Source of the DNA: Ignavibacteriales bacterium
GTDB taxonomy: Bacteria; Bacteroidota; Ignavibacteria; UBA10030
Reading direction: 5' to 3'
Assembly (NCBI GenBank): GCA_016186715.1
Contig: JACPLA010000100.1
Span: forward strand, 157-64,156
DNA: 64,000 bases
Program-made: the position numbers and the translations under genes
Part shown: positions 19,230 through 64,000 of the stretch, piece by piece
How the letters are laid out: every line of letters begins with the position of its first letter
Position numbering within the stretch: the first letter of the stretch is position 1
Notes under the pieces: model-generated
What the model saw: the letters and a program-made list of their open reading frames with translations, nothing else
What the model was told of the DNA's origin: nothing
Database searches by the model: none

Positions 19230-19231
19230 GA

Positions 19232-22989: not shown

Positions 22990-22994
22990 AGAGC

Positions 22995-27267: not shown

Positions 27268-27348
27268 AGACTGCATCCTCCGTGGAAACAAGGTCCCCGC
27301 GAGGGGACGGTTTTGATGATACCAGAATTATTTTCCATTTTCAATACT

Positions 27349-31266: not shown

Positions 31267-31608
31267 AGAAAAATGAAAAAGCCGAACGACGGTCCATGTT
31301 CCTTCATTCGGCCACTTGGCTTCCACCGAATTCGATAAAGGCTTGCTCCGTCACTGCCACACCTGAACAAACCGCTTCGTTTGATCAGGAACCAACCTTT
31401 AACAAAGACTCGATAGAAGAATTTCCTGTATGCGTTTTACGATCTCGACTCTAAAGATAGCAGAAGGGTGTTTGAGAGTCAAGAAATCGCGTGTGCCATG
31501 TTACACGCACAGACTGAATGCGTTTTTCATTGCGCGCGGGTTTTTTGGTTGCAGTTAGCGCAAAAAATTATTAAATTTCCGTTGTTTTAGACACTTTTTC
31601 GAGGTAGA

Positions 31609-48750: not shown

Positions 48751-50532
48751 TTAGACCCCGCGCGCCTCAAGTCGCTGCTGAAGAAGGTCGATCTGATGCG
48801 AGACTTCGTGAGGGAGGCGACGACCAAACTGTGCGAAAAACTCCCGCATACTTTTCGCTGCGTTCATCCAACCGTTCCAGTCAACTTCGGTTAGACGCCT
48901 CATCGTCTCGGGGGAAATCTCCAGACCGGAGGTGTCGATGGACCACCGCGTCGGCAAGTATCCGATGGGAGACTCAACGGCTTCTCCTTCCCCCCGTACC
49001 CGCTCCAGAATCCACTTCAGAACCCTGATGTTCTCTCCATATCCGGGCCAGAGGAAAGCGCCGTTCTCATCTTTTCGAAACCAGTTCACGCGGAAAATCA
49101 GCGGAGGCTTTTTCAATTTTCTGCCGATTGCCAACCAATGATTGAAATAATCTCCCATATGATAGCCGCAAAACGGAAGCATGGCCATGGGGTCGCGGCG
49201 CACAACTCCAACGGCGCCGGTCGCAGCGGCCGTCGTCTCCGCGCCCATGCCCGCCCCCATCATCACGCCGTGTTCCCAATTCAACGACTGCATGACCAGC
49301 GGAACAATCACCGATCGCCGGCTTCCGAAAATGATTGCCGAAATCGGAACCCCTTCTGGATCCTCCCAGGCATCATCGATCGAAGGACATTGAGATGCAG
49401 GGGCTGTAAACCGCGAATTCGGATGAGCGGCATCCCCTCGGCCGCTTTTCCAGATCTCGCCACGCCAATCGAGGAGACCCGCAGGCGGATCCACACCGAT
49501 TCCTTCCCACCATGGTTCTCCGCCGGGTGTCATCGCGACATTCGTAAAGATCGTCCCACGATGCACCATTTCCATGGCCACCGGGTTTGTCTTTGAACTC
49601 ATTCCGGGCGCGACACCGAAGAATCCCGCTTCAGGATTGATGGCTCGCAGTCGACCATCTCCGTCGATGTGGAGCCACGCAATGTCGTCACCGACAGTTG
49701 TAATCTTGTATCCCTGGTCAGCCAGAGCGGAGACCATCATGGCGAGGTTGGTTTTGCCGGAGGCGCTGGGAAACGCGGCCGCCATGTATGTCTTGTGTCC
49801 GCCCGGATCCTCAAGACCGAGAATCAACATGTGTTCCGCCATCCATCCTTCCTCACGCGCCATCCAGCTGGCAATCCGCAGGGCGAAACATTTCTTGCCG
49901 AGGAGCGCGTTACCGCCGTATCCTGATCCGAAACTCCAGATCAGTCTTTCTTCCGGAAAATGAAGGATGAACCGCCGGGCAGGATCGAGGTCGCCCAGGG
50001 AGTGAAGACCGGGAACAAATTCGCCCGATTCGTGGAGATGATCCATTGCCGGCTTACCCACGCGTGTCATGATGTGCATGTTGACAGCAACATACAGACT
50101 GTCGGTGACTTGAATTCCAACCTTGCTGTATGGCGAACCCACCGGCCCCATCAGGTACGGGATGACATACATCCTCCTTCCCTTCATGCTCCCGGTGAAC
50201 AGCCTTCCCACTTTTTCCTTCGCATCCTTTGGAGCCATCCAGTTGTTTGTAGGACCGGCATCGTCTTTTGAGCGGGTGCAGATGAAAGTCAGATCTTCCG
50301 TCCGCGCCACATCATTGGTGCTGCTGCGATGGAGGTAACAGTTGGGGTACGTCTTTTCATTCAGCTTCACGAGGGTCCCGTCTTCGAGCATCCTTTCAAC
50401 GAATGTCCGGTATTCTTCCTTCGAACCATCACACCAGTAGATCGAATCAGGTTGTGTGAGTCGGGCGGCTTCATCGACCCATTCCTGCATCGACGGATGC
50501 GCAGCAGCTCCATTTTTCTGTAAGGAAATCAC
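48751..50532 (-). CDS. pckG: Phosphoenolpyruvate carboxykinase (GTP)
   Basis: GTP-PEPCK kinase-1a block [15 protein letters not shown] and PEP/OAA-binding motifs; 593 aa. GTG start. Confidence 0.9.
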
Positions 50533-51173
50533 AGCCGGCTCTTCCAGGTTCGTATGGTTATAGGATCAATGCGCACCTCATCCCCGGCCACCGCGCTGGG
50601 AAAGGGGTCCGGGTAGTACTTCTGACAGCATGCATACGCTTCCAGGCTGGCCATGTTCCAGTAGGACGGACATGATGCGCAATGAATATTGTTTCCGCTG
50701 AGGTAGAAGTCCGTTGAGCCGCAGTGCTCACTCTTGCTCATGGCCGTCACAAGTTTTCCCTGAGGAGTCACATAGGCAATCATGGGGACTTCCTGAATCT
50801 TTTCCGGATCGAAGAACCGGACCAGCTTGTTTTCCTGCACGGCCCGCAGCGGAATTGCAATCGCCCCTCCTTTCATGGTTGCCTCGATCGGAACGCTGGC
50901 AATTTTCTGCTCACGATACATCGTCACCATTCCAACTGTCGGCTGCCGCTCAATGACCGGATGGAAGGTTCTCAGCAATTGATCCAGGAACACGCCGATG
51001 CCGCCGACAAGGACCAAGATCATTGTCGCCCGGACCATCCACCGTTTCGCCGGTACTTTCGGCTTCCGCTGTTCGCCCCCCGACTTCTCCTCGACGAATT
51101 TCAGAGCGGTGCCGCACGTCGGACACACGCCCGTTTTCCCCTGCACCTCTGTTCCACATTGATGGCACGTCAT
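50529..51173 (-). CDS. Membrane-anchored Cys-rich protein (zinc-ribbon N-terminus + TM + DUF2318-like Fe-S/metal-binding domain)
   Basis: N-terminal zinc-ribbon [20 protein letters not shown], one TM helix, and a C-terminal Cys cluster [23 protein letters not shown]...YACC. It overlaps the pckG start by 4 nt. Confidence 0.6.
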
Positions 51174-51186
51174 TCTGTCGAACCTC

Positions 51187-52386
51187 CTAAACCGCAGTCA
51201 CCGATGTGCGTGTTAACTTCCCACCCGGACTTCGTACCACGGCATTCGCCTCTTCTCCGATTAGCCGCTCGAGCTTCTGAACTTTTTCCTCCACCTCCGG
51301 ACGTGACCGGCCGAGAACCGTCATGTGGCCCATCTTGCGTTTTGGCTCCCTCCTCGATTTCCCGTACAGGTGTATTTTTGCGCCTTCGATTTTCTGGACT
51401 TCAGCCAGATCGAGACGCTGGAGATGTTTGCCAAGGAGGTTCACCATTGCACAGGGACTGAGAAGCCTCGGTTGATGAATCGGAAGTCCGCAAACGCATC
51501 GGACGAGCGCTTCAAATTGTGAAACACTCGAAGCGTCAAGCGAGAAATGTCCCGAATTGTGCGGACGGGGCGCAAGCTCATTCACTAGCAACCGACCGTC
51601 GTGTGTCACAAACATTTCCACACACAGGACGCCCACGATGCGAAAATGCTCAATCACCGCTCTGCCCAGGTCCGTCGCCTTTTGTGCCAGATCGGCGGGG
51701 AGTTCTGCGGGAACGCGTGTCACGTGGAGGATGTTCTCGCGATGTTCATTTTCCAGGACCGGGAATGTCGTCACCGTCCCCTCGCGCCCGCGGACGGCAA
51801 TCACCGAGATTTCAAGCTGGAGAGGAAGGAATTGCTCAACCACGCGCTCCGCAAATTGTTCCCCCTCCTTCTTCAAGAATGATTCAAGTTCCTCCCCTGT
51901 ACGCAAGACGGATTGTCCTTTGCCGTCGTACCCTGTCGTTGAAGTTTTCACCACAACCGGGTACCCAATCTCCCGAACAGCCGTTTTCAATCCGTCCGCC
52001 GTAGAAGCAGACAAGAACCTCACAACCGGAAACCCAGCTTTCAGTAAAGCTTCTTTTTCCACTCCCCGGTGTTGGGCTATGCGAAGGATGGGGCTTCCGG
52101 GAAAAACCGGTTTGTTCGATTCAATGGTTTCAACGGTCTGCGCGTCGATATTCTCGAACTCGTACGTGACGACGTCGGAAGACCGGCCAAGTTGCTCCGC
52201 GGCTTGTGTGTCCTCGAAAGGAGCCGTGATGGTTCTTTCGGCAACCTTTGAAGCCGGGCATTCCGGATCGGAATCCCACACGATACTCCGGTATCCCATC
52301 CGACGGGCTTCGCGGAGCGTCATCATGCCGAGTTGTCCGCCGCCGATCATCCCGATCGTCGCCGGCGGGAGAAGGGTGTTGGTCAT
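51187..52386 (-). CDS. purK: N5-carboxyaminoimidazole ribonucleotide synthase
   Basis: ATP-grasp motifs ([27 protein letters not shown]). I trimmed the track's 197-aa spurious extension to the ATG at 52384-52386, which overlaps the purE stop (ATGA). Confidence 0.9.
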
Positions 52387-52886
52387 ACCGATGTGGAAAG
52401 AACCTTCTGTTCGGTATCTCTCCGATAGTGTTCGAGCTTTTCGGCAAATTCCGGACGCTTCACGGCGAGGATCCTGACGGCGAGCAATCCGGCATTTGTT
52501 GCTCCGTCGATCGCGACCGTTGCGACGGGAACTCCGGCCGGCATTTGTACGATCGAGAGGAGGGAGTCGATTCCGCTCAGCGCCCTCGATTTTACCGGAA
52601 CGCCGATCACCGGAAGCGCCGTTTTCGACGCGACCATGCCCGGCAAATGGGCCGCCCCGCCCGCACCCGCAATAATGACCTCGATCCCGCGTCCCGCCGC
52701 GTCCTCCGCATACCGAAACATGTGGTCCGGAGTACGGTGCGCCGACACCACCTTGAATTCGAAGGGAACGCCAAACGACTTCAGAATATCTCTCGCCGGA
52801 GCCAGGTGCTCGGCATCCGAGGCGCTTCCCATGATAATGGCGACAAGGGGGGGTACGCCTTTTCTGCCGCGTCGTCTTAGTTTCAT
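52383..52886 (-). CDS. purE: N5-carboxyaminoimidazole ribonucleotide mutase
   Basis: PurE signature [10 protein letters not shown], then AHRTP and [13 protein letters not shown]. Confidence 0.9.
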
Positions 52887-53038
52887 TGGAATCAGCAATT
52901 ACGAAAGACCTGTCGGAAACGGACCGGACGATCAGGCGCCGTCCAGGCCGCACCCTTCGACCGGCTAGAAATGGCAAAGAGGGTCTCAGGGCATGCGTGA
53001 ACGTACGAAAGAGTTTCTAGAATCGAAAGGGGAATGAT

Positions 53039-53803
53039 TCAGAGCCGTGCCGCAGACTCGTCGGATGCCGTCTGACGATTACGGTTCTGTTTCTTTTTCT
53101 CAGCCGCAATCCGATTCGCGATAAGAGCCGCTGTCGCACCTGCGCCGAACCCGTTATCGATATTCACCACGGTCAGCCCCGGCGCGCACGACTGCAGCAT
53201 CGTCATCAACGCAGCCTCTCCCTTTCCGCCATATCCGTATCCCACGCTCGTCGGCACGCCGATCACCGGAACCGGTACAAGTCCCCTCACGACTGTTGGG
53301 AGTGCTCCCTCCATTCCCGCCACCACGACCACTGCCGAAGCATCCTGAGAGCGAATCTCTTCGAGCGGATTCACAAGCCGATGAATGCCCGCCACGCCGA
53401 CATCATAAAACCGAAGCACCTTGCAGCCCATCGCCTCGGCCGTCACACGCGCTTCCTCGGCAACGGGGAGATCCGACGTTCCCGCGGCGAGTACCGCTAT
53501 CACCCCCCCTGTGGTGTGAATCCCCCTCCCCGGCCGCTGAAGTACAATTGTCCGGGAAATGTCGTTGACGGCAACATCGAACGATTCTCCCAGTTCGCTT
53601 TTCACGGCTGCGGCCACCGCCGCGCTCGCACGGGTAACCAGGGCAAGACCTTCCTGCATTGTCATCGATTCAACGAGCTTCACAACCTGTTCGGCCGTCT
53701 TTCCTTCCGCAAGCACCGCTTCCGGAATCCCGGTGCGCTCCCGGCGGTGAATATCAAGACGGCCAAATGAATCTAACGACGATTTGGGATCTTCCAATGT
53801 CAT
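53039..53803 (-). CDS. larB: LarB-family PurE-like carboxylase (nickel-pincer cofactor biosynthesis protein LarB homolog)
   Basis: N-terminal LDIHRRERTGIPEAV block plus a PurE-like fold in the C-terminal half (AVLAAGTSDLPVA, VAGMEGALP). Confidence 0.7.
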   Translation of the reverse strand: MTLEDPKSSLDSFGRLDIHRRERTGIPEAVLAEGKTAEQVVKLVESMTMQEGLALVTRASAAVAAAVKSELGESFDVAVNDISRTIVLQRPGRGIHTTGGVIAVLAAGTSDLPVAEEARVTAEAMGCKVLRFYDVGVAGIHRLVNPLEEIRSQDASAVVVVAGMEGALPTVVRGLVPVPVIGVPTSVGYGYGGKGEAALMTMLQSCAPGLTVVNIDNGFGAGATAALIANRIAAEKKKQNRNRQTASDESAARL

Positions 53804-54810
53804 GCTTTCGAAGCTTTCCGTAAACGATCCATGACCGCCGTGCCAAGGCCGCCTTCATCGACCTGCTCAACGAGAATGATATCGGCCCCCTCGTGATCCA
53901 GTTCCCGAAAGGTACGAAACAGATATCGGGCAAAAAAGTCGATCGGCGCGGGAAGGACTTTAAAAAACACTCCGGATTCCACGCTCGCCATCTCGGGAGA
54001 ATGAACAATGCAGCCGACAGATTTTCCGTCCTGCCGAAATTCTTTGAGCGCTCTCTTCAATCCCTCCACATCTTCACGGTCAACAAGGACAATCTTTGCA
54101 TTGGGCGCATAGTGACGATGCCTCGTCCCCGGTGAACGCCTGAGAAACTCCTCCTCCGAAGCAAGCCGCACCGGCCCCACGATATCTTCGAGGCTCTCTT
54201 TGTGCAACCCACCGGGCCGGAGAATCAGGGGCGGATCCAGCGTGACATCCACCACCGTCGATTCAATGCCGATGTCCGTCGGACCGCCATTCAAGACCAT
54301 GTCGATTCTCCCCTTGAGATCCTCCATCACATGATTTGCACTCGTCGGGCTTGGACGACCTGTCAGGTTGGCGCTCGGCCCCACGATTCCGCCGTCGAAT
54401 TCTTCGATGAGGGCGAGAGCGACCGGATGATCGGGCATACGGATGGCAACCGTGTCCAGCCCGGAAGTGACAATTTCCGGAACCAGATAGGTTTTCCTGA
54501 CAACCAGCGTTAACGGCCCGGGCCAGAATTCCTTCGCGAGGCGTTCTCCTTTTTCCGACACTTCCTCCGCAAGTTCCATCAACTGATGACGCACTGCGAT
54601 GTGAACGATCAACGGGTTATCGGACGGACGACCCTTCGCGGCAAAAACTTTCTGAACGGCTTCAGAATTGAGCGCATCAGCTCCGAGTCCATAAACGGTC
54701 TCGGTTGGGAACGCGACTACTCCCCCTTTCTTCAGAACCTCCGCGGCCTCTGCAATAATTTGAACATCCGGATTCTCAAGCGAAACTGTTGCAAGTCTTG
54801 TTTCAATCAT
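53800..54810 (-). CDS. tsaC: L-threonylcarbamoyladenylate synthase (YrdC/Sua5 family, with Sua5 C-terminal domain)
   Basis: YrdC motifs (AFPTETVYGLGADA, VRMPDHP) and a Sua5-type C-terminal domain; 336 aa. Confidence 0.85.
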   Translation of the reverse strand: MIETRLATVSLENPDVQIIAEAAEVLKKGGVVAFPTETVYGLGADALNSEAVQKVFAAKGRPSDNPLIVHIAVRHQLMELAEEVSEKGERLAKEFWPGPLTLVVRKTYLVPEIVTSGLDTVAIRMPDHPVALALIEEFDGGIVGPSANLTGRPSPTSANHVMEDLKGRIDMVLNGGPTDIGIESTVVDVTLDPPLILRPGGLHKESLEDIVGPVRLASEEEFLRRSPGTRHRHYAPNAKIVLVDREDVEGLKRALKEFRQDGKSVGCIVHSPEMASVESGVFFKVLPAPIDFFARYLFRTFRELDHEGADIILVEQVDEGGLGTAVMDRLRKASKA

Positions 54811-54834
54811 TCCGACAACATGTTCAAGAGTACG

Positions 54835-55332
54835 CTACAACGGTTTGAACCGCTCAAACGACTGACGGCAGGAATCGCAATAGAAAATTTGTTTGCAGAG
54901 GGTTGCGCCGAACGCGCTTTCAAGATGCGTTTGATTCGAGCGGCAAAACGGACAGGGAACGGGAAGAGCCAGCGTTGCCCGAAAATCCTCCGTTTTCAAA
55001 GGCGGGGGGGCGATTCCAAAGTCCCTCAGCTTTTGTTTTGTTTCATCACTCAGCTCATCTGTCGACCAGGATCCCGAGGCAACCGTGTCCACCGTGATTT
55101 CATCAAACCCGAGGTCCTGAAGTTTTTCGCGAACTTCCCGGCGCATCAAGTCCATCGCCGGGCAGCCGGCAAACGTCGGAACCAGTTTCACCGTGACGCT
55201 TCCATTGTCCACCTGAACATCGCGAATCACATTGAGCTCAACAAGGGAAAGAACGGGAATCTCGGGATCTTTGACATCGCGCAGGGCTTTCCAGACTTCG
55301 GCAACACTCCGTCGTGAGGTCGTTTTCACCAT
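54835..55332 (-). CDS. paaD: 1,2-phenylacetyl-CoA epoxidase subunit PaaD-like (DUF59/MIP18 + C-terminal zinc ribbon)
   Basis: DUF59 motif DPEIPVLSLVELNV and a C-terminal CPFC...CDSC. Start at the ATG at 55330-55332. Confidence 0.7.
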   Translation of the reverse strand: MVKTTSRRSVAEVWKALRDVKDPEIPVLSLVELNVIRDVQVDNGSVTVKLVPTFAGCPAMDLMRREVREKLQDLGFDEITVDTVASGSWSTDELSDETKQKLRDFGIAPPPLKTEDFRATLALPVPCPFCRSNQTHLESAFGATLCKQIFYCDSCRQSFERFKPL

Positions 55333-56120
55333 GGTTGACCTGGGGCGAGTTGATACACGTGTTGGAGGTCGGAAACCAGCTGCCGGAGGTCGTCGGTATG
55401 GCGGCCGGTCCTTCCCCCAAGATCCGGAGAACACTCAGGCTCGAACGTACCGTTCTTTTTCCGAACCGGAACAACGAGGGTAGCCCGAGTGAGGACCCGC
55501 ATGATTTCTGTCAGCCATTCTTCTTGAAGCTCGCGGCTTGGTTTGACCACTCCGGCTTTCACCAGATCCGCCTCTGCAGGAAAATCCTCAAACAGACCCA
55601 GCGACTGAGGAAAGGCGGTTTCGGCGGCGGCTTGCATGCGCCGGTGGCTCTCTTCGGTACCATCACCCAACCGCTCCACAAGTCCCTGGCTGTGCATCAG
55701 GTGATAGGCCTCCTCGGCCAGAATTTTCACTGAAAGCTGGCGCAGGGGGTCAAAGGAACTCTGGGCGAAAGACTTCATCCGTACTTGTTCTGCGGCGTCG
55801 AAAAAAAACTGGCGCACGACGGTATAAGCGAAGTCTCCCTTGGGATATGCGACAAGCCGGCAGCAGGCAAAGTCGCGCCAATTCCGTTCAAAGGCCATCC
55901 AGTCAGGCGTTTTCCCGGTGAGCTGTTCATGAAGGGAGAACCACGCAAGGGAGTGACCCAGTTCGTCCTGAGCAATGTTGGAGAACGCAATATCTTCTTC
56001 GAGGATTGGCGCAAACCCCGTCCACTCGGAGTTCCGGTGACCGAGCACAAGTTCGTCGTCGCCGAGGGCGACAATCATCCCGAGCAAAGGTTCTGAGGGA
56101 AGGCCGGAAGGGATGTTCAT
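55326..56120 (-). CDS. paaC: 1,2-phenylacetyl-CoA epoxidase subunit PaaC-like
   Basis: Ferritin-like fold with degenerate diiron ligands. Its position between paaB and paaD matches the usual gene order. Confidence 0.7.
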   Translation of the reverse strand: MNIPSGLPSEPLLGMIVALGDDELVLGHRNSEWTGFAPILEEDIAFSNIAQDELGHSLAWFSLHEQLTGKTPDWMAFERNWRDFACCRLVAYPKGDFAYTVVRQFFFDAAEQVRMKSFAQSSFDPLRQLSVKILAEEAYHLMHSQGLVERLGDGTEESHRRMQAAAETAFPQSLGLFEDFPAEADLVKAGVVKPSRELQEEWLTEIMRVLTRATLVVPVRKKNGTFEPECSPDLGGRTGRHTDDLRQLVSDLQHVYQLAPGQPW

Positions 56121-56127
56121 CGACTTC

Positions 56128-56418
56128 CTAGGATTCTGCCGGTTCGGTTCTTGCGGGTGCGTCAAACGCTTTGGGATCGCGGTAACTCTTATCGAACACC
56201 TGTGAGAAGAAATTCGGGTCCTGATAGTCGGTTTGCGCGATATCGCTGCTCCGGACCACCCAGAGGCTCACGCAGTCGAGCCGTCGTGCAAACTGATCGC
56301 GAGCCATCTGGAGCGCCATTTCCGGATCGGGGGCATGCACCGACCCGACATGCTCATGGGGCCTTCCGCGCCGGGATTGGTGGAAGACTTCATATGTTTC
56401 CCACTGTGTATCGCTCAT
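56128..56418 (-). CDS. paaB: 1,2-phenylacetyl-CoA epoxidase subunit PaaB
   Basis: About 96 aa. PaaB signature WEVF...[15 protein letters not shown]. Confidence 0.8.
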
Positions 56419-57353
56419 GCGGCATTCGCCCGCTTTGCCTTTGCGGCCAGAGCTTCCCGGACCCATCGGCCTTCTTCATGCGACCTCCGGCGAACGTCGA
56501 GGCGTTCCTTGTTCATCGGCCCGTCGCCGTTGATGACTCTTTTCAATTCCTCCCAATCCGGCTGCGTGAAGCGATAGTGACCAGCGGCCTCATCATAGAC
56601 ACAGTCGCGGTCGGGAACATCCAGTCCGAGCGCCCGGATCTGAGGGACGATGAGATCGACAAACTCCTGGCGCACCTGGTCATTCGTCTTGGTTTTGATC
56701 CGCCATCGCATGGCTTTTTCGGTGTGGGGGGACGCCTTGTCGGGCGGACCGGACATCATGAGAGTCGGATACCACCAGCGATGGATCGCGTCCTGGGCCA
56801 TCGCCCGTTGCGCAGGAGTTCCTTTGGCAAGAGCAACGATAGCGTCATATCCCTGTTTGATATGAAAAGACTCTTCGTAGCAAATCCTCTTCATCGCACG
56901 GGCATACGGGCCGTACGACCCTTGGGCCAGCATGGATTGGTTAATCACCGCGGCGGTGTCCACGAGCCACCCGATGACGCCCACGTCGGCCCAGGTCGGC
57001 GTGGGATAGTTAAACACGTTCGAATATTTGGCCTTCCCTGCCAGAAGTTCATCAATCATTTCTTCCCGGCTCTTCCCAAGCGTCTCGGCTGCACGGTATA
57101 GCAATTGACCGTGGCCCGCCTCATCCTGCACCTTGGCAACCAGGGTCAGCTTGCGGCGAAAGCCGGGGGCATAAGGGATCCACTTTCCTTCCGGAAGCTG
57201 TCCCACGATCTCGCTGTGAGCGTGCTGGCCGATCATTCTGATCAGGTTTTGCCGGTATTCGTCGGGCATCCAGTCGCCGGGCTCGACTTTGTCGCCGCGT
57301 GCCACCCGCGCTTCAAATTCGGTAAGTTGTTCGTTGTGTGATTTCTCGGTCAT
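56415..57353 (-). CDS. paaA: 1,2-phenylacetyl-CoA epoxidase catalytic subunit PaaA
   Basis: Diiron carboxylate motifs ([28 protein letters not shown]). Start at the ATG at 57351-57353. Confidence 0.85.
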
Positions 57354-57470
57354 AGAAAGAAACGAAGTGATCGTAGACCAGAATATAGCGATTTTTGGGG
57401 TTGAAGTAAACCTCCACTCTTTAAGTTTCTTCTTAACTGGGATTTCCGACGGCGATGATGCGCAAGCGTT

Positions 57471-57630
57471 GCAGAGTCCGATTCGCAATCGGACCTCATG
57501 GCCGCGGCCCGGCCTCGGATATTCGCCAGAGGCGAATGAGTCTTTGGCTCAAATCCGACGCCTTGTAGAGTCCGATTCGTAATCGGACCTCACAAGCCTT
57601 CGTGTGCGGTCGCGGACCGGACTCTACAAC
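57471..57630. repeat. REP-like hairpin/direct-repeat cluster (2 copies of ~28-bp unit RYAGAGTCCGATTCGYAATCGGACCTCA; nested 12-bp inverted repeat TTGTAGAGTCCG/CGGACTCTACAA)
   Basis: Copies at 57471-57498 and 57565-57592, each containing the hairpin TCCGATT-CGY-AATCGGA. A similar hairpin ATTCGCC-AGA-GGCGAAT lies at 57521-57537. Confidence 0.5.
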
Positions 57631-57866
57631 GTTGTTGTCTAGGGAACAAAGAAATCCCCCTTCGGGGGATTGGCAAAAGAATAAGCCGTCCCCGCCAGCC
57701 TATGATGTTTCAATGAGGCGGGCTGGGGCTTTAACCGGTGGCGATGAAGGCAACCCAAGTCCGCGCGCAAGCCCCATTCAACCATTCGCCATTTCACCAA
57801 TCACCAACCCCCTGTTACCTCATTTCGTTATAACCTTCGGAAGGTTAAGCCTTCCGAAGGTTCCCA

Positions 57867-58625
57867 TTACCGCATCGCCGTTAAAACCAGCTTAAACGCT
57901 GCCACGAACAGAACCGCTGCGAGGATTCTTCGCAAAACAACCGCGGTGAGAACCCTGGATCCTGCATAGGACCCTGCCAACCCTCCCACAAATGCTGCCG
58001 CAACGAACGGCCAAATCGCTCCGACTTCGAGACCTCCGCGTGCGAACCGACCCACGAGTCCCCCAAGCGAATTGACAACAATAAAAAATGCCGAAATCGC
58101 TGCGGTTTGCTTCATGGAGGCCCATCTCACCAGGATCATGATCGGACTGAGGAAAATTCCTCCCCCGACGCCGACAATTCCGGACAAAAAACCGATTCCA
58201 GCCCCCGCCCCAAGCGCAACCGGGAATGATGGTTGCACGGCTCTTTCTTCCGCTGTCTTTCCCATCGTGGCAGCGGCAAGTCGATATGCGGCAAACAAAA
58301 GAACCCCGGCCAAAAGAAGAAAGTAGATCGTCTCAGAAATCCGGATGTATCCGCCCAGAAATGCTGCCGGAATCGAGAGAAGAACAAAAGGCCAGGCAAG
58401 GCGGAATGAAAAATGACCTGCCCGAAGAAACTGCACCATGCCAATGCCGGCGACAAGAACATTCAGAACCAGGGCAGTGGTGGACATCAGGGAAGGTGAA
58501 ACGAGAAAAAACGAGAGGACAGCAAGGTAACCGGATGCGCCGCCATGTCCAACTGACGAGTAAAGGGCAGCAACGACAAGCATTAAAAGTGCGACTATCA
58601 AGAACTCAACGAGGGTAAGTTCCAT
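57867..58625 (-). CDS. TauE/SafE-family (DUF81) sulfite/anion exporter membrane protein
   Basis: 252 aa, about 8 TM helices. It shows the two Gly-rich internal repeats typical of the TauE/SafE family. Confidence 0.8.
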   Translation of the reverse strand: MELTLVEFLIVALLMLVVAALYSSVGHGGASGYLAVLSFFLVSPSLMSTTALVLNVLVAGIGMVQFLRAGHFSFRLAWPFVLLSIPAAFLGGYIRISETIYFLLLAGVLLFAAYRLAAATMGKTAEERAVQPSFPVALGAGAGIGFLSGIVGVGGGIFLSPIMILVRWASMKQTAAISAFFIVVNSLGGLVGRFARGGLEVGAIWPFVAAAFVGGLAGSYAGSRVLTAVVLRRILAAVLFVAAFKLVLTAMR

Positions 58626-58646
58626 GAACCCATTTCCAATAATTGA

Positions 58647-59207
58647 TCACGTCTGCTCAAGGGGACCGGCAATAACTTCGCAACCAAGCTTGGTCGGGTG
58701 GTCAAGGACTTTTGCATCTGCCGGGACGGATCGGAGCACCCAGAGCCCCAGCAAGTCTCCACCCGCTGCGCCCAGAAACAAAGCTCCCAGAATCGTGAAC
58801 CAGGCGTCGCCGGTGATCAGGCCGACGGTGGCAGGAAGAAACCCGAGGAAAAGGGCGGGCAGGACGACGCCAACGCGGTAGGCCCTTGCTGTAATCGGTA
58901 CCTTGCAGTGTGCGTACGGCGTGATGAGTTTCCAATGGACTCCGAACTTGATGTCTTCCCAGGCAATCTTCCCCGCGAACTTCCATCCAATACCATGGAG
59001 CAATTCATGAAGAAAGATTCCCGCAACCAGCGCAATCAGCGTTGTCCGCGTCAGAAAAACGCGCACCAGAACCATGTCGCCCCAGACCAGATGAAACGCA
59101 TATCCATAGACGGCAACAAGACCGACAAACAGTGGAGCGGCCAGGAGGTTGGCGAGACCGACGGACATCGTCACGTCGCGGCGTTCTGGGGTGGGTTCAG
59201 GATTCAT
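58647..59207 (-). CDS. DUF3267-like putative membrane zincin (HExxH)
   Basis: TM helices flank an HELLHG motif. Start at the ATG at 59205-59207 (MNPEPTPE); the track ORF is 53 aa longer. It overlaps the upstream response-regulator stop by 11 nt. Confidence 0.55.
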   Translation of the reverse strand: MNPEPTPERRDVTMSVGLANLLAAPLFVGLVAVYGYAFHLVWGDMVLVRVFLTRTTLIALVAGIFLHELLHGIGWKFAGKIAWEDIKFGVHWKLITPYAHCKVPITARAYRVGVVLPALFLGFLPATVGLITGDAWFTILGALFLGAAGGDLLGLWVLRSVPADAKVLDHPTKLGCEVIAGPLEQT

Positions 59208-60090
59208 GGAACGGTATGGTGACAAGAACTTTGTTCCCGCTATTGAAATATTGCAAGTCGAGAAACGCACGTGCCATGGCAATCCCGCGGCCATGGTTAT
59301 CGAGGAGGCGATTTTCGTCAAGGTCCAGATACTTCGCAAAATCAAAACCTCTTCCCTCATCCTCAATCAGAACCGTCATCCTATCGTCATAACGCTTCAG
59401 ATTAACATCGACAAACTTTGCTTTGTTCTCCTCGAACTCCAGTCTTCTCTGAATCTCCGCCAGCCAGGTCCCTTCTTCCATCAGCCTCCCTTTTTCCCGG
59501 TACGTAATCCCCAGATTCCCATGCTCGATGGCGTTTGTGATCATTTCCATGACCAGGGCGGCCCGCTCGGGTACGGGGCAAGCATTGGCAATCCGGACGG
59601 CGAGGAATTCTCCTTCTCCTAATGTGCGGAAGCGAAAGGAGCCCTCCGTCAAAAAACGGAAAGGGTTTTCGCTCTCCTTGATTTTTTTCAGGAGCTGCTG
59701 TTTTTCCGAATAATCCTGAACAGCTGCCCGGACAAGGGAATGAATAACCTCCCGCGTTGCAGGCTTTGGGAGGTAGTAGTATGCCCCGGCATCGATCCCC
59801 TCCTTCATCTGCTCAGAGCTGGTCAGAACCGTGTGCAGGATGACCGGAATATATTCGAACGTTGCCTGCTCTTTCGCCCAGCGGAGAAACTCGATTCCGG
59901 ACATCCTTGGCATCGTCCAGTCCAAAATGATCGCCGAAATCCGTTTTCCGTCCCTCTCCATGACCTGCTGCGCATCCACGCCGTCCTTCGCCATCAGCAA
60001 ATCATATCCCTCTTCTTTTAGGATAACCTCTAGCATCGTTCGGAGACTGACATCGTCATCGACGATGAGGATGGTGGAATTGGCTGGCAC
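59197..60090 (-). CDS. Response regulator receiver domain fused to a GHKL/HATPase_c-like domain
   Basis: REC domain (ILIVDDDVSLRTMLE, the phospho-acceptor D in ILDWTMP, K in YYLPKP). The C-terminus has N/G1-box-like MITNAIEHG and G2-like DEGRGF. Confidence 0.7.
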   Translation of the reverse strand: MPANSTILIVDDDVSLRTMLEVILKEEGYDLLMAKDGVDAQQVMERDGKRISAIILDWTMPRMSGIEFLRWAKEQATFEYIPVILHTVLTSSEQMKEGIDAGAYYYLPKPATREVIHSLVRAAVQDYSEKQQLLKKIKESENPFRFLTEGSFRFRTLGEGEFLAVRIANACPVPERAALVMEMITNAIEHGNLGITYREKGRLMEEGTWLAEIQRRLEFEENKAKFVDVNLKRYDDRMTVLIEDEGRGFDFAKYLDLDENRLLDNHGRGIAMARAFLDLQYFNSGNKVLVTIPFHES

Positions 60091-60145
60091 GTTTTGGACG
60101 TGAGAAGTGAGATGTGAAAAGTGAGAGGTACAGACAATATGGAAA

Positions 60146-61594
60146 CTACTTCTTCGGAAAAAGAAAATTTTCGCCCACTTTCACTTTTGTCACTTTGTTA
60201 TCGGAACTCATTTCGAAGATGACGAGCTCTCCGTCCCCGTTCTCGCCTATCATGCGGAACGTATTGGGGGCTTCCTGCGTCAGGTCCACAAGGTTTCCCC
60301 TGGGATTCCCCTCGGGTGGATAACTGTAGTCGTACATCATGAGTTTGCCATTCATCAGCAGAATGTCTGTTTCGAAAGACCAGGCGTCAACGTATTTTCC
60401 TGTATACTTGATCCACGACGGGTCGGGGATGAAAATATCAATTGACGTTGCCGTGGCTCTTCGCAGGGAAGGAAGCATCATACTCAGGATCCGTTCTGTA
60501 AAATATCCGGGATCACCGTCGTCGCCGTTGGTCAGGACAATCAAGGCAATCTTGTCGTCCGGCAGCAATGAAAACTGCGACCGATATCCCGAAATCCATC
60601 CCGAATGACCCACCACAGTTTTTTCCTCCTGCCTCCAGACCGCAAATCCGATCCCCCAGGCGCTCTTCCAGTTTGGGTTGAGCCACTGCACACGCTGCAT
60701 TTCCTTGACAGTGCTCCCTTTCAGGATCTGAGAGCCAAACACGACATGACCCTCTCTAAACTGGAGCGAGGCGAATTTTGCGAGGTCTTCGACCGTTGAC
60801 GTCATGTTAGCCGCCGCCGCAAGACCTTTTGCGTTGGTGAAATCGACTTCCTTTCGGGATCCGTCTTCGAGCCGCCGACCATATCCCGTCGCAAGCCGAC
60901 GCCGGTGAACATCCTGAAAAAACACGGTCGTGCTGTTCATTCCAAGGGGTTCCAGGATATTCCTGGTTACGTAATCTGCATACGGAATTCCGGAGACTTC
61001 GGCGACAATCTCGCCGGCGAGGGCATAGGCAAGATTGGAGTATTTCATCCGCGTCTCGGTCGGAAACAAAGTCTCCTGCTGCGCCATCGCGGCGATCATC
61101 TCGTTGCGTGTCGGAAACTTGTTATCGGTCCAATAGGGGAATGCGGCTTCCCGCGGAAGCCCCGATGTGTGCGTCAGCAAATGCCAGACCGTGACGGTCG
61201 GCGCGTTGGGATAGCGATTCTTAATCCGAAACCATTTGAGATGCTTTTCGATCGGATCGTCCAGCTGGAGCTTCCCTTGATCCCGCAGCTGCATAATAGC
61301 CATGGCCGTAAAGGTCTTCGTGATGGAAGCAATCCGAAACATTATTTGAGGAGTCACAGGGATTTCATCGTCGACATCGGCAAACCCGAACCCCTTGGCG
61401 TACACAAGGTCCTGGTCATACACGATCCCTATGCATATCCCGGGCAGTTGTCGGTACTGCATTTGAGCCTCAACCCATCGCTCCATCAGCTTCAGGCTGG
61501 AGCCGACTTCGGGAACTTCAGCGATTTTGTGTGTCTGTGCGTGAATGACGACAGGAAGGATCAGGCTCCACACGAGGGACCACAACCGTTTCAT
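60146..61594 (-). CDS. Serine hydrolase, class C beta-lactamase/penicillin-binding-protein family
   Basis: Signal peptide MKRLWSLVWSLILPVVIHAQ. SxxK motif FRIASITKTF, a YxN-like YSN and HSG. I trimmed the track ORF by 29 aa; the start ATG position is uncertain by 1 nt in my manual indexing. Confidence 0.8.
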   Translation of the reverse strand: MKRLWSLVWSLILPVVIHAQTHKIAEVPEVGSSLKLMERWVEAQMQYRQLPGICIGIVYDQDLVYAKGFGFADVDDEIPVTPQIMFRIASITKTFTAMAIMQLRDQGKLQLDDPIEKHLKWFRIKNRYPNAPTVTVWHLLTHTSGLPREAAFPYWTDNKFPTRNEMIAAMAQQETLFPTETRMKYSNLAYALAGEIVAEVSGIPYADYVTRNILEPLGMNSTTVFFQDVHRRRLATGYGRRLEDGSRKEVDFTNAKGLAAAANMTSTVEDLAKFASLQFREGHVVFGSQILKGSTVKEMQRVQWLNPNWKSAWGIGFAVWRQEEKTVVGHSGWISGYRSQFSLLPDDKIALIVLTNGDDGDPGYFTERILSMMLPSLRRATATSIDIFIPDPSWIKYTGKYVDAWSFETDILLMNGKLMMYDYSYPPEGNPRGNLVDLTQEAPNTFRMIGENGDGELVIFEMSSDNKVTKVKVGENFLFPKK

Positions 61595-61932
61595 GGCTTT
61601 ACACTCCTCATTCAGAAAAAGACTACAGAAGTCTGCGCAACTTATGGAATACGTGGAGGAAAAGCAAGAAAAGAGTGACAAGATGCAGAAGGAAGAACGT
61701 TGTCAGAAGGTCCGGGAAAGAACGACCCCAAAAAAAGAACAACTTGTCGGGTGGATCGTGTACCTCGGGATCAATGTGTTTGAACGTGCGCCAGACCAAC
61801 GTTCTCTCCGGTTGACTGTGCACATGCAGTCCTCCGTGCGGCCCTTTCATGAATTTGCGCTCTTAACATCAAGCTAAGGAAGATGCCGCAACCTGATGAA
61901 CGGAAGTCTCCGGCCGCGAAACCCACGGTTGA

Positions 61933-62628
61933 CTACAGAGCCAATCCCAACGTGATCACAAATGCACCAAAGGCCGGGCCGGTGTCGCTCACCTCACCGG
62001 CGGGATCCCAATCGCTCGCCGCGCCTCCGGCAACCAGGAACCGGTACTCAGGCGACACCACAACCGACGCAAACTGGAGTTGCGCGCCAATGCCGAGGGA
62101 AAATGCGAAAATGTTTTCATCCCATGGCGAGCTATAAGAATACTCCGCCCGGTTGGCGAACTGGTCGCCCACGCCTTCTCCGTTCGAGTTCAGCAGGGAG
62201 TAATGAAACGCGGGCGCAAGGTAAGGCGTAAGCCCGAAGGTTGGAAGCGGCAGGGGATATGTGAGCTTAAGACCGGCAGCAGCGCCGAATGACGGACCTC
62301 CCGAGGAGATCGTTTCACCAAGAGGCAGCCAATCCTCTTTCGTATCTCCGCCAAGACCGACATGAACTTCTCCTCTGATGCCGAGGCCGATCGGTCCCAG
62401 GGAGACGATCGACGTTTCATAAAAAAGGATCGCCTGTGTCCGACCGAAAACATGTATGGGATATGTTTCCCTCAGTCCGGCGGAGGCGCTGGAATTGTAG
62501 CGATACCAATTTGTCGTAAACGTGTAGAATCCTATTCCTCCCCCCACCGACGATTGCCGGGCCAAAAGGTCTGCCGGAACCAGCATTCCAACAATCAGGA
62601 ATGAGGTCGCAACAATGGTTGATTTCAT
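61933..62628 (-). CDS. Outer-membrane beta-barrel hypothetical protein
   Basis: Signal peptide MKSTIVATSFLIVGMLVPADLLA, with a perfect RBS AAGGAGG 6 nt upstream of the ATG at 62626-62628. Gly-rich amphipathic strands follow. Confidence 0.6.
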   Translation of the reverse strand: MKSTIVATSFLIVGMLVPADLLARQSSVGGGIGFYTFTTNWYRYNSSASAGLRETYPIHVFGRTQAILFYETSIVSLGPIGLGIRGEVHVGLGGDTKEDWLPLGETISSGGPSFGAAAGLKLTYPLPLPTFGLTPYLAPAFHYSLLNSNGEGVGDQFANRAEYSYSSPWDENIFAFSLGIGAQLQFASVVVSPEYRFLVAGGAASDWDPAGEVSDTGPAFGAFVITLGLAL

Positions 62629-62687
62629 TGGATCCTCCTTCGTTGGATGATTCGTACCAATCATTGTTCGGTTTGGTCCGGATGAGT

Positions 62688-62897
62688 CTATCGCACTTCA
62701 CCCGCCTTCCCTATCTTTTCAAATGTGTGCAGAACTCTCGTCACCCCATGCTTGAGCATGGAAACGACGGCAACATCACCATCAAGCTCTGTGAGCTTCT
62801 CCTGCGCAACCTTTTTTGCCTCCTCTTCGCTCTCGAGAATCGCGTGGTATAGATTCGTTGGAACGTCTAGTGTTCTTGTGACCAGCACTCGGTACAT
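62688..62897 (-). CDS. Small hypothetical protein (69 aa)
   Basis: Isolated ORF with no overlapping larger ORF. No recognisable family. Confidence 0.3.
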   Translation of the reverse strand: MYRVLVTRTLDVPTNLYHAILESEEEAKKVAQEKLTELDGDVAVVSMLKHGVTRVLHTFEKIGKAGEVR

Positions 62898-62951
62898 CAT
62901 GGGTCTCTTTCAGTTAAAATATTCTGATACCTTAACAGTCGTGCACCCGGA

Positions 62952-63584
62952 TTATTCGAATCTCTGTGTCTTCCATTTTCTCGCCTTCCTGCTGTCCGTT
63001 TCCCAATTCAGGGGATTGTCGATAATGTATTGGCGGATTCTGTCTAGTTCACCCTCGTCGCGGATTATCCGATCATGGAACCGTTCCTGCCATTGGAAAT
63101 CGGCAAATCCTTCATCGTGGATTCGGCTGGTGCATTTGGATTTGAACTGCCCTAGGATAGAACCCAGGGAATTTGGTTTTAATTTGGGTTTTGGTTTTCC
63201 CGCAGGTGTCATACCCGTAGAGACGACCGGATCGGTCGTCTCTACGATGGGAACAACAAATGATTTTTCCCAATCCACAAATGGTATTTGACCTGACGAT
63301 GCCGCGGATTTGGATTCGTGGATCATGATTATTCCGTGCATATGATTCGGCATCACGCGCCATTCATCCAACGTAACCGTCGGCCGAATCGTCGGCGTCT
63401 TCAGCCATTCCTCTGCAACAATTTCCCCGATCTGTGACAGTTTCATTTGTCCGTTTGCAACATCACCAAACCACCAAATCATCCCTTCCGTGTCAATCGT
63501 TACAAAGTACGATCCGGGCGATGAATAGTCGAATCCTTTCAACCGCGCGGATTCAATCCGGTACTTCCCCTGAAATAGCGCCAT
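62952..63584 (-). CDS. REP-associated tyrosine transposase (RAYT; IS200/IS605 TnpA-like Y1 HUH transposase)
   Basis: HUH motif MPNHMHGII. A catalytic Tyr-containing C-terminal helix (RFHDRIIRDEGELDRIRQYIIDNP). Start at the ATG at 63582-63584. Confidence 0.75.
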   Translation of the reverse strand: MALFQGKYRIESARLKGFDYSSPGSYFVTIDTEGMIWWFGDVANGQMKLSQIGEIVAEEWLKTPTIRPTVTLDEWRVMPNHMHGIIMIHESKSAASSGQIPFVDWEKSFVVPIVETTDPVVSTGMTPAGKPKPKLKPNSLGSILGQFKSKCTSRIHDEGFADFQWQERFHDRIIRDEGELDRIRQYIIDNPLNWETDSRKARKWKTQRFE

Positions 63585-63996: not shown

Positions 63997-64000
63997 AAGC

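What the first reader, a model, noticed from the sequence alone, without database searches (positions are those of the whole stretch)
54835..57353. paaABCD-like diiron epoxidase cluster without a paaE reductase in the window, flanked by tsaC and larB rather than phenylacetate-catabolic genes
The four subunits A (diiron ligands present), B, C and D occur in canonical order and are tightly coupled (overlaps of 4 and 7 nt). No ferredoxin-NADPH reductase (PaaE) follows, and no paaK/paaG/paaZ genes are present. Neighbours are unrelated (tsaC/sua5, LarB, purEK). Stand-alone PaaABCD sets in organisms that do not degrade phenylacetate are poorly understood. They may use a trans-acting reductase or act on a different acyl-CoA.
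Basis: partly seen in the sequence, partly recalled or inferred. Interest (0 to 1): 0.5.

Follow-up and report, generated by a model that had tools for sequence, protein, structure and literature searches.

The report
Reductase-less phenylacetyl-CoA epoxidase with iron-ready PaaC
This is a real four-gene phenylacetyl-CoA ring-epoxidase core in an Ignavibacteriales genome, from a large branch of the family that never carries the usual reductase gene next to it and whose "structural" subunit PaaC still has all six iron-binding residues, unlike the E. coli model.

Summary
paaA, paaB, paaC and paaD lie on the minus strand at 54835-57353, and each scores above its NCBIfam equivalog cut-off. PaaA is 59-60% identical to E. 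coli PaaA. It keeps the six iron ligands, the lysine bridge, Lys103 and Phe108.

No PaaE and no other Paa protein is encoded in the 64 kb window, and I found no Fe-S or FNR motif. Neighbours are housekeeping genes. This layout (TauE-paaABCD-sua5-larB-purEK) is conserved across Ignavibacteria MAGs.

The missing paaE is a lineage trait, not a local accident:
- PaaA proteins from paaE-linked clusters form one clade (85/100 bootstrap).
- The window's PaaA lies outside it, with Anaerolineae and Deinococcus. Thermus and haloarchaea, also without linked paaE, branch more basally.
- Several of these clusters sit next to paaK, paaZ or paaG, so they are genuine phenylacetate clusters.

In this lineage PaaC keeps the full E/ExxH/D/ExxH ligand set, which E. 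coli-type PaaC has lost. Ligand-complete PaaC had linked paaE in 0 of 131 loci. Degenerate PaaC had it in 11 of 35.

The likely function is phenylacetyl-CoA epoxidation with an unlinked electron donor. The rest of the pathway could not be checked, because only this window was available.

The parts
56415..57353 (-). paaA, catalytic diiron subunit (312 aa). Ligands are E48, E78, H81, D132, E161 and H164. The lysine bridge is E55/K74. K109 and F114 correspond to E. coli Lys103 and Phe108.
   Evidence: TIGR02156 467 bits. E=1.7e-122 to PDB 3PVR_A. Residue mapping.
56128..56418 (-). paaB, bridging subunit (96 aa). It overlaps the paaA stop by 4 nt.
   Evidence: TIGR02157 95.8 bits and PF06243. 41% identity to E. 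coli PaaB.
55326..56120 (-). paaC (264 aa). It has a complete diiron-type ligand set at E23, E53, H56, D108, E137 and H140 (codons 56052-56054, 55962-55964, 55953-55955, 55797-55799, 55710-55712, 55701-55703). It lacks equivalents of the lysine bridge and Phe108.
   Evidence: TIGR02158 230 bits. E=3.6e-38 to PDB 3PVR_B. Ligand register from MAFFT and from profile-profile alignment with PaaA at probability 99.9%. Codon positions.
54835..55332 (-). paaD (165 aa). It has a DUF59/SufT-like domain plus a C-terminal Cys4 ribbon (CPFC at residue 127, CDSC at residue 152). It overlaps the paaC stop by 7 nt.
   Evidence: TIGR02159 170.6 bits, PF01883 and PF23451. Cysteine positions.
53800..54810 (-). 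sua5/tsaC (threonylcarbamoyl-AMP synthase), 24 nt downstream of paaD. Probably co-transcribed with the paa genes.
   Evidence: TIGR00057 223 bits and Sua5_C. No terminator-like site between paaD and larB on this strand. The adjacency recurs in Ignavibacteria loci.
53039..53803 (-). larB, overlapping the sua5 stop by 4 nt.
   Evidence: NF033503 266 bits.
57382..57410 (-). Sigma-70-like promoter match (TTTACT-17-TATATT), 29 nt upstream of the paaA ATG.
   Evidence: This is a consensus match only: 3 sites found against 2.2 expected in shuffles.
57476..57588 (.). Two copies of a perfect 19-bp palindrome, GTCCGATTRCGAATCGGAC, at 57476-57494 and 57570-57588 in the 513-nt region upstream of paaA. Possibly an operator or a species-specific repeat.
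   Evidence: 0.17 matches expected by chance. The palindrome is not conserved upstream of paaA in 21 related loci.
57653..57671 (-). Terminator-like hairpin (AATCCCCCGAAGGGGGATT followed by a T-rich tail) after the upstream TauE gene. It separates that gene from the paa unit.
57867..58625 (-). Upstream neighbour, a TauE/SafE-family permease. It is syntenic in Ignavibacteria.
   Evidence: PF01925. Synteny.

Best explanation
The four genes encode the complete oxygenase core of 1,2-phenylacetyl-CoA epoxidase. PaaA is the catalytic diiron subunit, PaaB the bridging subunit, PaaC the partner subunit and PaaD the maturation factor.

Shown:
- They belong to a large, phylogenetically coherent branch of the family, which I call type II here. 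It includes Ignavibacteria, Anaerolineae/Chloroflexota, Planctomycetota and Deinococcus. Thermus and haloarchaea share the same features but branch more basally.
- No FNR-type PaaE reductase is linked to the cluster in this branch.
- PaaC in this branch keeps all six diiron ligand positions.
- The PaaA active site matches that of E. coli PaaA.

Inferred:
- PaaA binds phenylacetyl-CoA and epoxidises C1-C2 with O2.
- The two electrons arrive through the conserved lysine-bridge face from a redox partner encoded elsewhere. This is most simply a free ferredoxin (or similar carrier) with its reductase.
- PaaC binds its own dimetal centre.
- In this Ignavibacteriales genome the cluster is vertically inherited inside a housekeeping block. 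It is probably co-transcribed with sua5 and larB.
For: - Family membership of all four proteins rests.
- PaaA is 59-60% identical to E. coli PaaA. All six ligands, Glu49/Lys68, Lys103 and Phe108 are kept. 82 of 309 positions are invariant over 88 PaaAs of both types, and only two positions are type-specific.
- The window holds no PaaE. Of 80 genome loci fetched with +-10 kb flanks, only 3 carry PaaE. None of 80 metagenome loci does, although 13 carry paaK, 7 paaZ, 9 paaG, 10 paaI and 4 paaX.
- paaE-linked PaaAs form one clade that excludes the window, with 85/100 NJ bootstrap support.
- PaaC ligands: the window and 48 of 76 genome loci read EEHDEH. 78 of 80 metagenome loci are ligand-complete. 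Deinococcus, Haloferax, Haloarcula and Natribaculum are complete. All 11 paaE-linked clusters are degenerate. Fisher tests on these counts give p=9e-9, or 2e-6 for well-flanked loci only, not corrected for relatedness.
- Among 48 type II PaaCs with mean pairwise identity 49% (minimum 35%), all six ligand positions are invariant. The register is confirmed by hhalign.
- Thermus thermophilus HB8 has a PaaR-repressed paaR-paaABCD-paaZ operon without paaE (PMC6651687), and the genus is cited as an experimentally characterised phenylacetate degrader (PMC13186573).
- The layout TauE-paaABCD-sua5-larB-purE-purK recurs in at least 9 Ignavibacteria loci.
Against: - The rest of the genome was not available, so a PaaE orthologue or the downstream genes paaG/Z/J/K may or may not exist elsewhere.
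- No biochemical data exist for any type II enzyme in the papers I could read. Metal binding by PaaC is inferred from sequence only.
- The link between intact PaaC ligands and missing paaE is not strict. A nested group (Chitinophaga and allies: AKHDIH, LKQDLH) has degenerate PaaC and still no paaE within 10 kb.
- Many metagenome loci are short. Only 22 have at least 1.5 kb on both sides of the cluster, and 15 have at least 4 kb.
- The tree is neighbour-joining with a midpoint root. Support for the paaE-less remainder as one clade is only 48/100.
Confidence: 0.6

Rival explanations
1. This is an ordinary E. coli-type PaaABCDE enzyme whose paaE gene, and the rest of the paa pathway, simply lie elsewhere in the genome. 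The PaaC ligand pattern would be an evolutionary leftover without function.
For: An earlier survey found paaE outside the cluster in 4 of 23 cases and absent from 2 of 25 genomes (PMC2653477). The PaaA lysine-bridge face proposed for PaaE docking is intact. Only 64 kb of the genome could be examined.
Against: Ligand-complete PaaC had no linked paaE in any of 131 loci from several phyla and archaea, including clusters that do carry paaK/Z/G/I/X. PaaAs from paaE-linked clusters form a separate clade. Six PaaC positions staying invariant at down to 35% pairwise identity is hard to explain as a neutral leftover.
Confidence: 0.22
2. The stand-alone cluster acts on a different acyl-CoA or another substrate, with a housekeeping role. 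This would fit its conserved position among t6A, NAD, purine and quinone biosynthesis genes.
For: In Ignavibacteria, Chitinophaga and related MAGs the cluster sits among housekeeping genes with no paa genes within 10 kb. These include sua5, larB, purEK and nadD, and also a methyltransferase, an amidohydrolase, a UbiA prenyltransferase and a DAHP synthase. The short paaD-sua5 and sua5-larB junctions suggest co-transcription.
Against: The residues known to position phenylacetyl-CoA and relay electrons are all conserved, and PaaA scores 467 bits on the PaaA equivalog model. Close type II relatives are embedded in phenylacetate clusters. There is no BoxB-like signal: the best hit is 19.8 bits against a cut-off of 499.
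Confidence: 0.12
3. The cluster is a decaying remnant of a lost phenylacetate pathway.
For: No other paa gene lies in 64 kb.
Against: All four reading frames are intact and translationally coupled. PaaA is 80-87% identical across many Ignavibacteria MAGs with the same synteny. All catalytic residues are kept.
Confidence: 0.03

Closest known systems
E. coli K-12 PaaABC(D)E, 1,2-phenylacetyl-CoA epoxidase (PDB 3PVR/3PW1; Klebsiella 4IIT)
   Same: The subunit set A, B, C, D and the gene order are the same. PaaA is 59-60% identical and keeps all ligand, lysine-bridge and Phe108/Lys103 residues. PaaD has the same DUF59 plus Cys4-ribbon architecture.
   Different: No PaaE (FNR-[2Fe-2S]) gene is linked. 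PaaC reads E,E,H,D,E,H at the ligand positions where E. coli PaaC reads C,L,Q,D,A,H and is described as iron-free (PMC7497051). The window's PaaA falls outside the paaE-linked clade. No paaF-K, paaZ, paaX or paaY is nearby.
Thermus thermophilus HB8 paaR-paaABCD-paaZ operon (TTHA0973-0968)
   Same: paaABCD has no paaE in the operon (PMC6651687). A Thermus plasmid copy of PaaC reads K,E,H,D,E,H at the ligand positions, i.e. nearly complete.
   Different: The Thermus operon is PaaR-regulated and carries paaZ, with paaK and paaI in a neighbouring operon. The window has no regulator and no downstream enzyme. Thermus PaaA branches basally rather than with the window.
Haloarchaeal paaABCD plus the 55-aa 'PaaE' (NCBIfam NF041867-NF041869)
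   Same: There is no FNR-type reductase. PaaC is ligand-complete in Haloferax, Haloarcula and Natribaculum.
   Different: In haloarchaea the Cys4 ribbon is a separate small protein that NCBI names PaaE. In the window it is the C-terminus of PaaD: residues 124-163 match NF041869. The haloarchaeal clusters carry paaK, paaI and an aldehyde dehydrogenase.
BoxAB benzoyl-CoA 2,3-epoxidase
   Same: It is also a diiron epoxidase of an aromatic CoA thioester, with a reductase that associates only transiently (PMC4498308).
   Different: There is no sequence membership: BoxB TIGR03225 scores 19.8 bits against a cut-off of 499, and only for PaaC. No BoxA-like or BoxC-like genes are present.

Membership tests
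1,2-phenylacetyl-CoA epoxidase, PaaA (TIGR02156) | Full-length match above the curated equivalog cut-off | tested here: met
   467 bits against a cut-off of 280. E=1.7e-122 to PDB 3PVR_A.
1,2-phenylacetyl-CoA epoxidase, PaaA (TIGR02156) | Six diiron ligands (Glu42, Glu72, His75, Asp126, Glu155, His158), the lysine bridge (Glu49, Lys68) and Phe108 | tested here: met
   All are identical in the pairwise alignment and invariant in 88 PaaAs. Residue list taken from PMC4498308.
1,2-phenylacetyl-CoA epoxidase, PaaB (TIGR02157) | Match above cut-off and position between paaA and paaC | tested here: met
   95.8 bits against 85.45. Gene order.
1,2-phenylacetyl-CoA epoxidase, PaaC (TIGR02158) | Match above cut-off | tested here: met
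   230.4 bits against 133.35. E=3.6e-38 to PDB 3PVR_B.
1,2-phenylacetyl-CoA epoxidase, PaaC as described for E. coli | Non-iron, purely structural homologue of PaaA, with the ligand residues lost | tested here: not met
   The window PaaC has E23, E53, H56, D108, E137 and H140 at the six ligand positions. Actual metal binding was not tested.
1,2-phenylacetyl-CoA epoxidase, PaaD (TIGR02159) | DUF59 domain plus C-terminal Cys4 ribbon, with a match above cut-off | tested here: met
   170.6 bits against 108.15, with PF01883 and PF23451. CPFC and CDSC motifs.
Five-component PaaABCDE enzyme | PaaE reductase (FAD/NAD(P)H domains plus a plant-type [2Fe-2S] domain) encoded with the oxygenase genes | tested here: not met
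   No hit in the window at E<=0.01 with six PaaE queries and no motif hit. The rest of the genome could not be tested.
Phenylacetate catabolic (paa) gene cluster | paaK ligase, paaG isomerase, paaZ hydrolase/dehydrogenase and the beta-oxidation genes paaF/H/J nearby | tested here: not met
   tblastn of the E. coli proteins finds none in 64 kb, and none within +-10 kb in about 22 Ignavibacteria loci.
Phenylacetate catabolic pathway (whole organism) | Downstream enzymes present anywhere in the genome | not testable with these tools
BoxB benzoyl-CoA epoxidase (TIGR03225) | Match above cut-off | tested here: not met
   There is no hit for PaaA. PaaC scores 19.8 bits against 499.1.

The most novel reading that the evidence does not exclude
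In the paaE-less branch of the family, PaaC is a second functional dimetal subunit, either catalytic or an electron relay. The enzyme does not use a dedicated NADPH reductase at all. It is reduced by a general low-potential carrier, for example ferredoxin made by 2-oxoacid:ferredoxin oxidoreductases that also produce phenylacetyl-CoA, or through the rubredoxin-like Cys4 ribbon of PaaD. The E. coli PaaABCE model would then describe only a derived sub-clade.
Probability: 0.3. Interest if true: 0.7.

Novelty: new variant of a known kind. Interest (0 to 1): 0.5.

Why it matters
The mechanistic picture of this widespread aromatic-ring epoxidase comes from the E. coli, Klebsiella and Pseudomonas enzymes. 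In that picture PaaA holds the only diiron site, PaaC is iron-free scaffolding, and PaaE delivers NADPH electrons. The comparison made here suggests the picture holds for one clade only.

A second, probably older and taxonomically broad branch never has paaE linked and keeps a complete, strictly conserved ligand set in PaaC. It covers Ignavibacteria, Chloroflexota, Deinococcus-Thermus, haloarchaea and many marine and soil metagenome lineages.

This gives a concrete, testable question: what reduces these enzymes, and does PaaC bind iron? It also warns against calling phenylacetate degradation incomplete in MAG annotation merely because paaE is missing.

For this particular window the cluster itself is already annotated in public records, and its physiological role in Ignavibacteria stays open.

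Tried and rejected
- Rfam scan of 50000-64000 at E<=1 gave no hit, so there is no known riboswitch or leader in the 513-nt region upstream of paaA.
- A search for a conserved operator failed. The two 19-bp palindromes are specific to this species and absent upstream of paaA in 21 related loci.
- I looked for an alternative redox partner conserved in type II clusters.
  - The extra length of PaaB in Anaerolineae and Deinococcus is a tandem PaaB duplication, not a redox domain.
  - An EthD-domain gene follows paaD in only 5 Anaerolineae loci and is absent from the window.
  - Recurrent neighbours in the metagenome loci (gene groups c9, c15, c19, c21, c22) look like unrelated metabolism or transport genes, judged from their N-terminal sequences only.
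  - Fe-S motif scans of 160 loci found no recurrent small ferredoxin. The only recurrent hit is a rubredoxin-like CxxCG...CPxC pattern inside PaaD itself in the clusters ordered A-D-B-C.
- The search for homologous proteins with PaaC returned only close Ignavibacteria relatives, so it gave no sample of family diversity.
- The look-up of encoding contigs on 50%-identity representatives returned contigs of only 2-3 kb.
- The Grishin 2011 and Teufel 2010 papers are not in the held library.
- A literature search for Ignavibacteria together with phenylacetate found nothing relevant.
- Structure prediction was not run, because the tool returns no coordinates from which metal-site geometry could be judged.
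Full report
**1. Observation**

The minus strand of 54835-57353 carries four translationally coupled genes:
- paaA at 56415-57353 (312 aa)
- paaB at 56128-56418 (96 aa)
- paaC at 55326-56120 (264 aa)
- paaD at 54835-55332 (165 aa)

Identical gene calls exist on two public Logan contigs. Each product exceeds the curated NCBIfam equivalog cut-off for PaaA, PaaB, PaaC or PaaD, and Pfam gives PaaA_PaaC, PaaB, PaaA_PaaC, and FeS_assembly_P plus Zn_ribbon_PaaD. PaaA matches E. coli PaaA (PDB 3PVR_A) at E=1.7e-122 over its whole length, and PaaC matches 3PVR_B at E=3.6e-38.

Downstream lie sua5/tsaC (24-nt gap), larB (4-nt overlap), purE and purK. Upstream lies a TauE-family permease, beyond a 513-nt spacer.

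I took the 14 E. coli K-12 Paa proteins from NC_000913.3. A tblastn of all of them against the window finds only A, B, C and D. Six diverse PaaE sequences give nothing even at E<=0.01. No Fe-S, Rieske, rubredoxin or FNR motif lies in a credible ORF. Pfam scans of about 40 other window ORFs show efflux, type IX secretion, glycogen, serine hydroxymethyltransferase, TatC, PEP carboxykinase, aminotransferases and the like, but no aromatic or acyl-CoA catabolism.

**2. Organism and synteny**

The closest PaaA genes in one-genome-per-species contigs are 80-87% identical and come from Ignavibacteria/Ignavibacteriales MAGs. The window's own PaaC is on record as an NCBI Ignavibacteriales MAG protein.

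In these MAGs the layout TauE-paaABCD-sua5-larB-purE-purK-(zinc-ribbon membrane protein)-PEP carboxykinase recurs. Occasional genes are inserted between paaC and paaD or after paaD. So the cluster is an old, vertically inherited part of a housekeeping block, not a recently acquired catabolic island. None of about 22 Ignavibacteria loci has any other paa gene within +-10 kb.

**3. The PaaA active site is that of the characterised enzyme**

All of the following are identical in the window's PaaA (residue list from PMC4498308):
- the six iron ligands (Glu42, Glu72, His75, Asp126, Glu155, His158 in E. coli numbering)
- the lysine bridge proposed for electron entry (Glu49, Lys68)
- the door residue Lys103
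- Phe108, which positions the phenyl ring

Over 88 PaaAs from both branches described below, 82 of 309 positions are invariant, including all of these. Only two positions differ systematically between the branches: L77Q and R160K. There is no BoxB signal.

**4. The missing paaE is a property of a whole branch of the family**

Of 80 related genome loci, only three Bacteroidia loci (L054, L061, L076) have paaE next to paaABCD. Several Anaerolineae loci carry paaK, J, G, F or H around a paaE-less paaABCD, so they are genuine phenylacetate clusters.

Annotated plasmid records show the same split.
- With paaE: Saprospira, Ralstonia, Sinorhizobium, Paracoccus, Gordonia, Roseateles and Pseudosulfitobacter.
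- Without an FNR-type paaE: Deinococcus (paaABCD-paaZ), Thermus, Haloferax, Haloarcula and Natribaculum.

In a neighbour-joining PaaA tree, all paaE-linked sequences, E. coli included, form one clade with 85/100 bootstrap support. The window's PaaA lies outside it with Ignavibacteria, Anaerolineae, Planctomycetota and Deinococcus. Thermus and Haloferax are basal under midpoint rooting.

The literature agrees in outline:
- paaE was unlinked or absent in some genomes in a 2009 survey (PMC2653477).
- A 2026 survey lists "partial multicomponent" configurations in Bacillota, Deinococci and Halobacteria (PMC13186573).
- T. thermophilus HB8 has a PaaR-repressed paaR-paaA-B-C-D-paaZ operon without paaE (PMC6651687).

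So a paaE-less paaABCD is not an oddity of this window.

**5.

At the six ligand positions, E. coli PaaC reads C,L,Q,D,A,H, and reviews describe it as a non-iron structural homologue of PaaA (PMC7497051, PMC4498308). The window's PaaC reads E,E,H,D,E,H. The motifs are DDE(23)LV, QDE(53)LGH(56), FFD(108)AA and AEE(137)AYH(140). A profile-profile alignment of PaaA and PaaC families confirms the register at 99.9% probability.

The pattern holds across the data sets:

| Data set | Ligand state of PaaC |
|---|---|
| 76 related genome loci | 48 read EEHDEH: all Ignavibacteria and most Anaerolineae |
| 48 type II PaaCs, mean pairwise identity 49%, minimum 35% | all six positions invariant, among only 32 near-invariant columns |
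| 129 full-length 50%-identity representatives nearest the window's PaaC | 38 read EEHDEH and 11 carry only D/E swaps; the rest are degenerate and highly variable at these positions |
| 80 metagenome loci retrieved through the QDE[LI]GHA motif | 78 also keep the four ligand positions outside that motif |

None of the 80 metagenome loci has a PaaE-like gene, although 13 have paaK, 7 paaZ, 9 paaG, 10 paaI and 4 paaX.

All 11 paaE-linked clusters examined have degenerate PaaC. Pooled, ligand-complete PaaC had linked paaE in 0 of 131 loci, and degenerate PaaC had it in 11 of 35. Fisher tests on these counts give p=9e-9, or 2e-6 for well-flanked loci only, not corrected for relatedness.

I found no paper describing this.

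**6. Caveats**

- The association is not absolute. A group nested inside the paaE-less clade (Chitinophaga and allied Bacteroidia: AKHDIH, LKQDLH) has lost the PaaC ligands without acquiring a linked paaE.
- PaaC lacks equivalents of the lysine bridge and Phe108 (it reads N, I, V), so a second substrate site is doubtful.
- Metal binding is inferred only from sequence.
- Many metagenome contigs are short.

**7. Mechanism**

Shown: a complete, conserved PaaABCD core with an E. coli-like PaaA active site, belonging to a paaE-less, PaaC-ligand-complete lineage.

Inferred: it epoxidises phenylacetyl-CoA with O2. The electrons come from a partner encoded elsewhere, and PaaC binds a dimetal centre whose role is unknown.

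I looked for a conserved alternative partner in type II clusters and found none.
- The long PaaB of Anaerolineae and Deinococcus is a tandem PaaB duplication.
- An EthD-domain gene follows paaD only in some Anaerolineae. An Exiguobacterium cluster has the same arrangement (PMC9416434).
- No recurrent ferredoxin gene is present.

One speculative route is the Cys4 ribbon of PaaD. In clusters ordered A-D-B-C it shows a rubredoxin-like CxxCG...CPxC pattern, and in haloarchaea it is a separate 55-aa protein that NCBI names PaaE.

Whether this Ignavibacteriales organism has the downstream enzymes, and hence whether it degrades phenylacetate, cannot be decided from the window.

**8. Transcription unit**

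- A terminator-like hairpin at 57653-57671 follows the upstream TauE gene.
- A sigma-70-like match lies 29 nt before paaA.
- No terminator-like site separates paaD, sua5 and larB.
- Two perfect 19-bp palindromes lie upstream of paaA, against 0.17 expected by chance. They are not conserved in relatives.
- No Rfam family matches the region.

**9. Verdict**

The finding is real and correctly described, but the genes are already annotated as PaaABCD in public records. The absence of paaE is normal for this branch of the family. The added value is the family-wide split between paaE-linked clusters with degenerate PaaC and paaE-less clusters with ligand-complete PaaC. To my knowledge this has not been described, and it gives a testable challenge to the E. 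coli-based model.

I rate it a new variant of a known kind, with moderate interest.

Noticed in passing
window 57476-57494 and 57570-57588: Two perfect copies of the 19-bp palindrome GTCCGATTRCGAATCGGAC lie 94 bp apart upstream of paaA, each inside a repeat of about 30 nt. They are present in this species (window, L001, L002) but not upstream of paaA in other Ignavibacteria. They could be an operator or a REP-like element.
   Followed up: partly
L069 9935-10921, L082 9938-10918, L070 (around 3878): Here paaA stands alone with no paaB, paaC or paaD. It is followed by a MazG-like gene and unrelated genes, in MAGs labelled Patescibacteria, Didemnitutus and Hyphomicrobiales. These PaaAs nest within the paaE-less clade.
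   Followed up: partly
L031 10864-11529, L038 10879-11475, L049 4425-5090, L026 6727-7365, L084 8406-8948: PaaB is about 180-220 aa in Anaerolineae and Deinococcus because of a tandem duplication of the PaaB domain. The canonical protein forms a dimer that bridges two PaaAC lobes, so a fused double PaaB may replace that dimer.
   Followed up: partly
L048 12802-13116, and L026, L052, L065, L071: A gene of about 100 aa with an EthD domain (PF07110) directly follows paaD in five paaE-less Anaerolineae clusters. A published Exiguobacterium paa cluster has the same arrangement (PMC9416434). It is absent from the window.
   Followed up: partly
L091 10406-11158 and L180 9503-10258: In Paracoccus and Roseateles a third PaaA/PaaC-like gene, annotated 'Phenylacetic acid catabolic protein', follows paaE. 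It reads E,K,H,G,E,H at the ligand positions.
   Followed up: no
L086 10199-10366 and L182 8228-8395; window PaaD residues 124-163: The haloarchaeal 'PaaE' named by NCBI is a 55-aa Cys4 ribbon that corresponds to the C-terminal ribbon of bacterial PaaD. It is not an FNR-type reductase, so the name is misleading.
   Followed up: partly
L105 3677-4156, L108 7636-8115 and about 12 other metagenome loci: A divergent sub-family has the gene order paaA-paaD-paaB-paaC, with PaaA about 40% identical to E. coli PaaA. Its PaaD ribbon carries a rubredoxin-like CxxCG...CPxC motif.
   Followed up: no
L060 11385-12371: A gene for a TIR-domain protein is inserted between paaC and paaD in a Bacteroidia MAG.
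   Followed up: no
L005, L008, L009, L014, L015 (between paaC and paaD): A small predicted lipoprotein of about 125-150 aa is inserted between paaC and paaD in several Ignavibacteria MAGs. The window lacks it.
   Followed up: no
L053 12617-16572, L067 4695-6718, L072 15305-16615: In paaE-less clusters with degenerate PaaC (MAGs labelled Alphaproteobacteria, Armatimonadota and Chlorobiota), paaD is followed by a methyltransferase and an amidohydrolase. In L053 a UbiA prenyltransferase and a DAHP synthase come next. This looks like a quinone or aromatic biosynthesis neighbourhood. I did not test whether the association exceeds chance.
   Followed up: partly
window 14968-31326: Four very large minus-strand ORFs (1009, 1030, 1041 and 1325 aa) lie beside PorV (26155-27291), a FlgD-Ig-like protein and a DUF5683 protein, with a T9SS plug protein at 8410-9639. 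They are probably type IX secretion cargo. I did not analyse them.
   Followed up: no
window 59197-60090: A response-regulator receiver domain is fused to an HATPase_c_2 (RsbW-like anti-sigma kinase) domain. It is syntenic upstream of the paa block in some Ignavibacteria.
   Followed up: no
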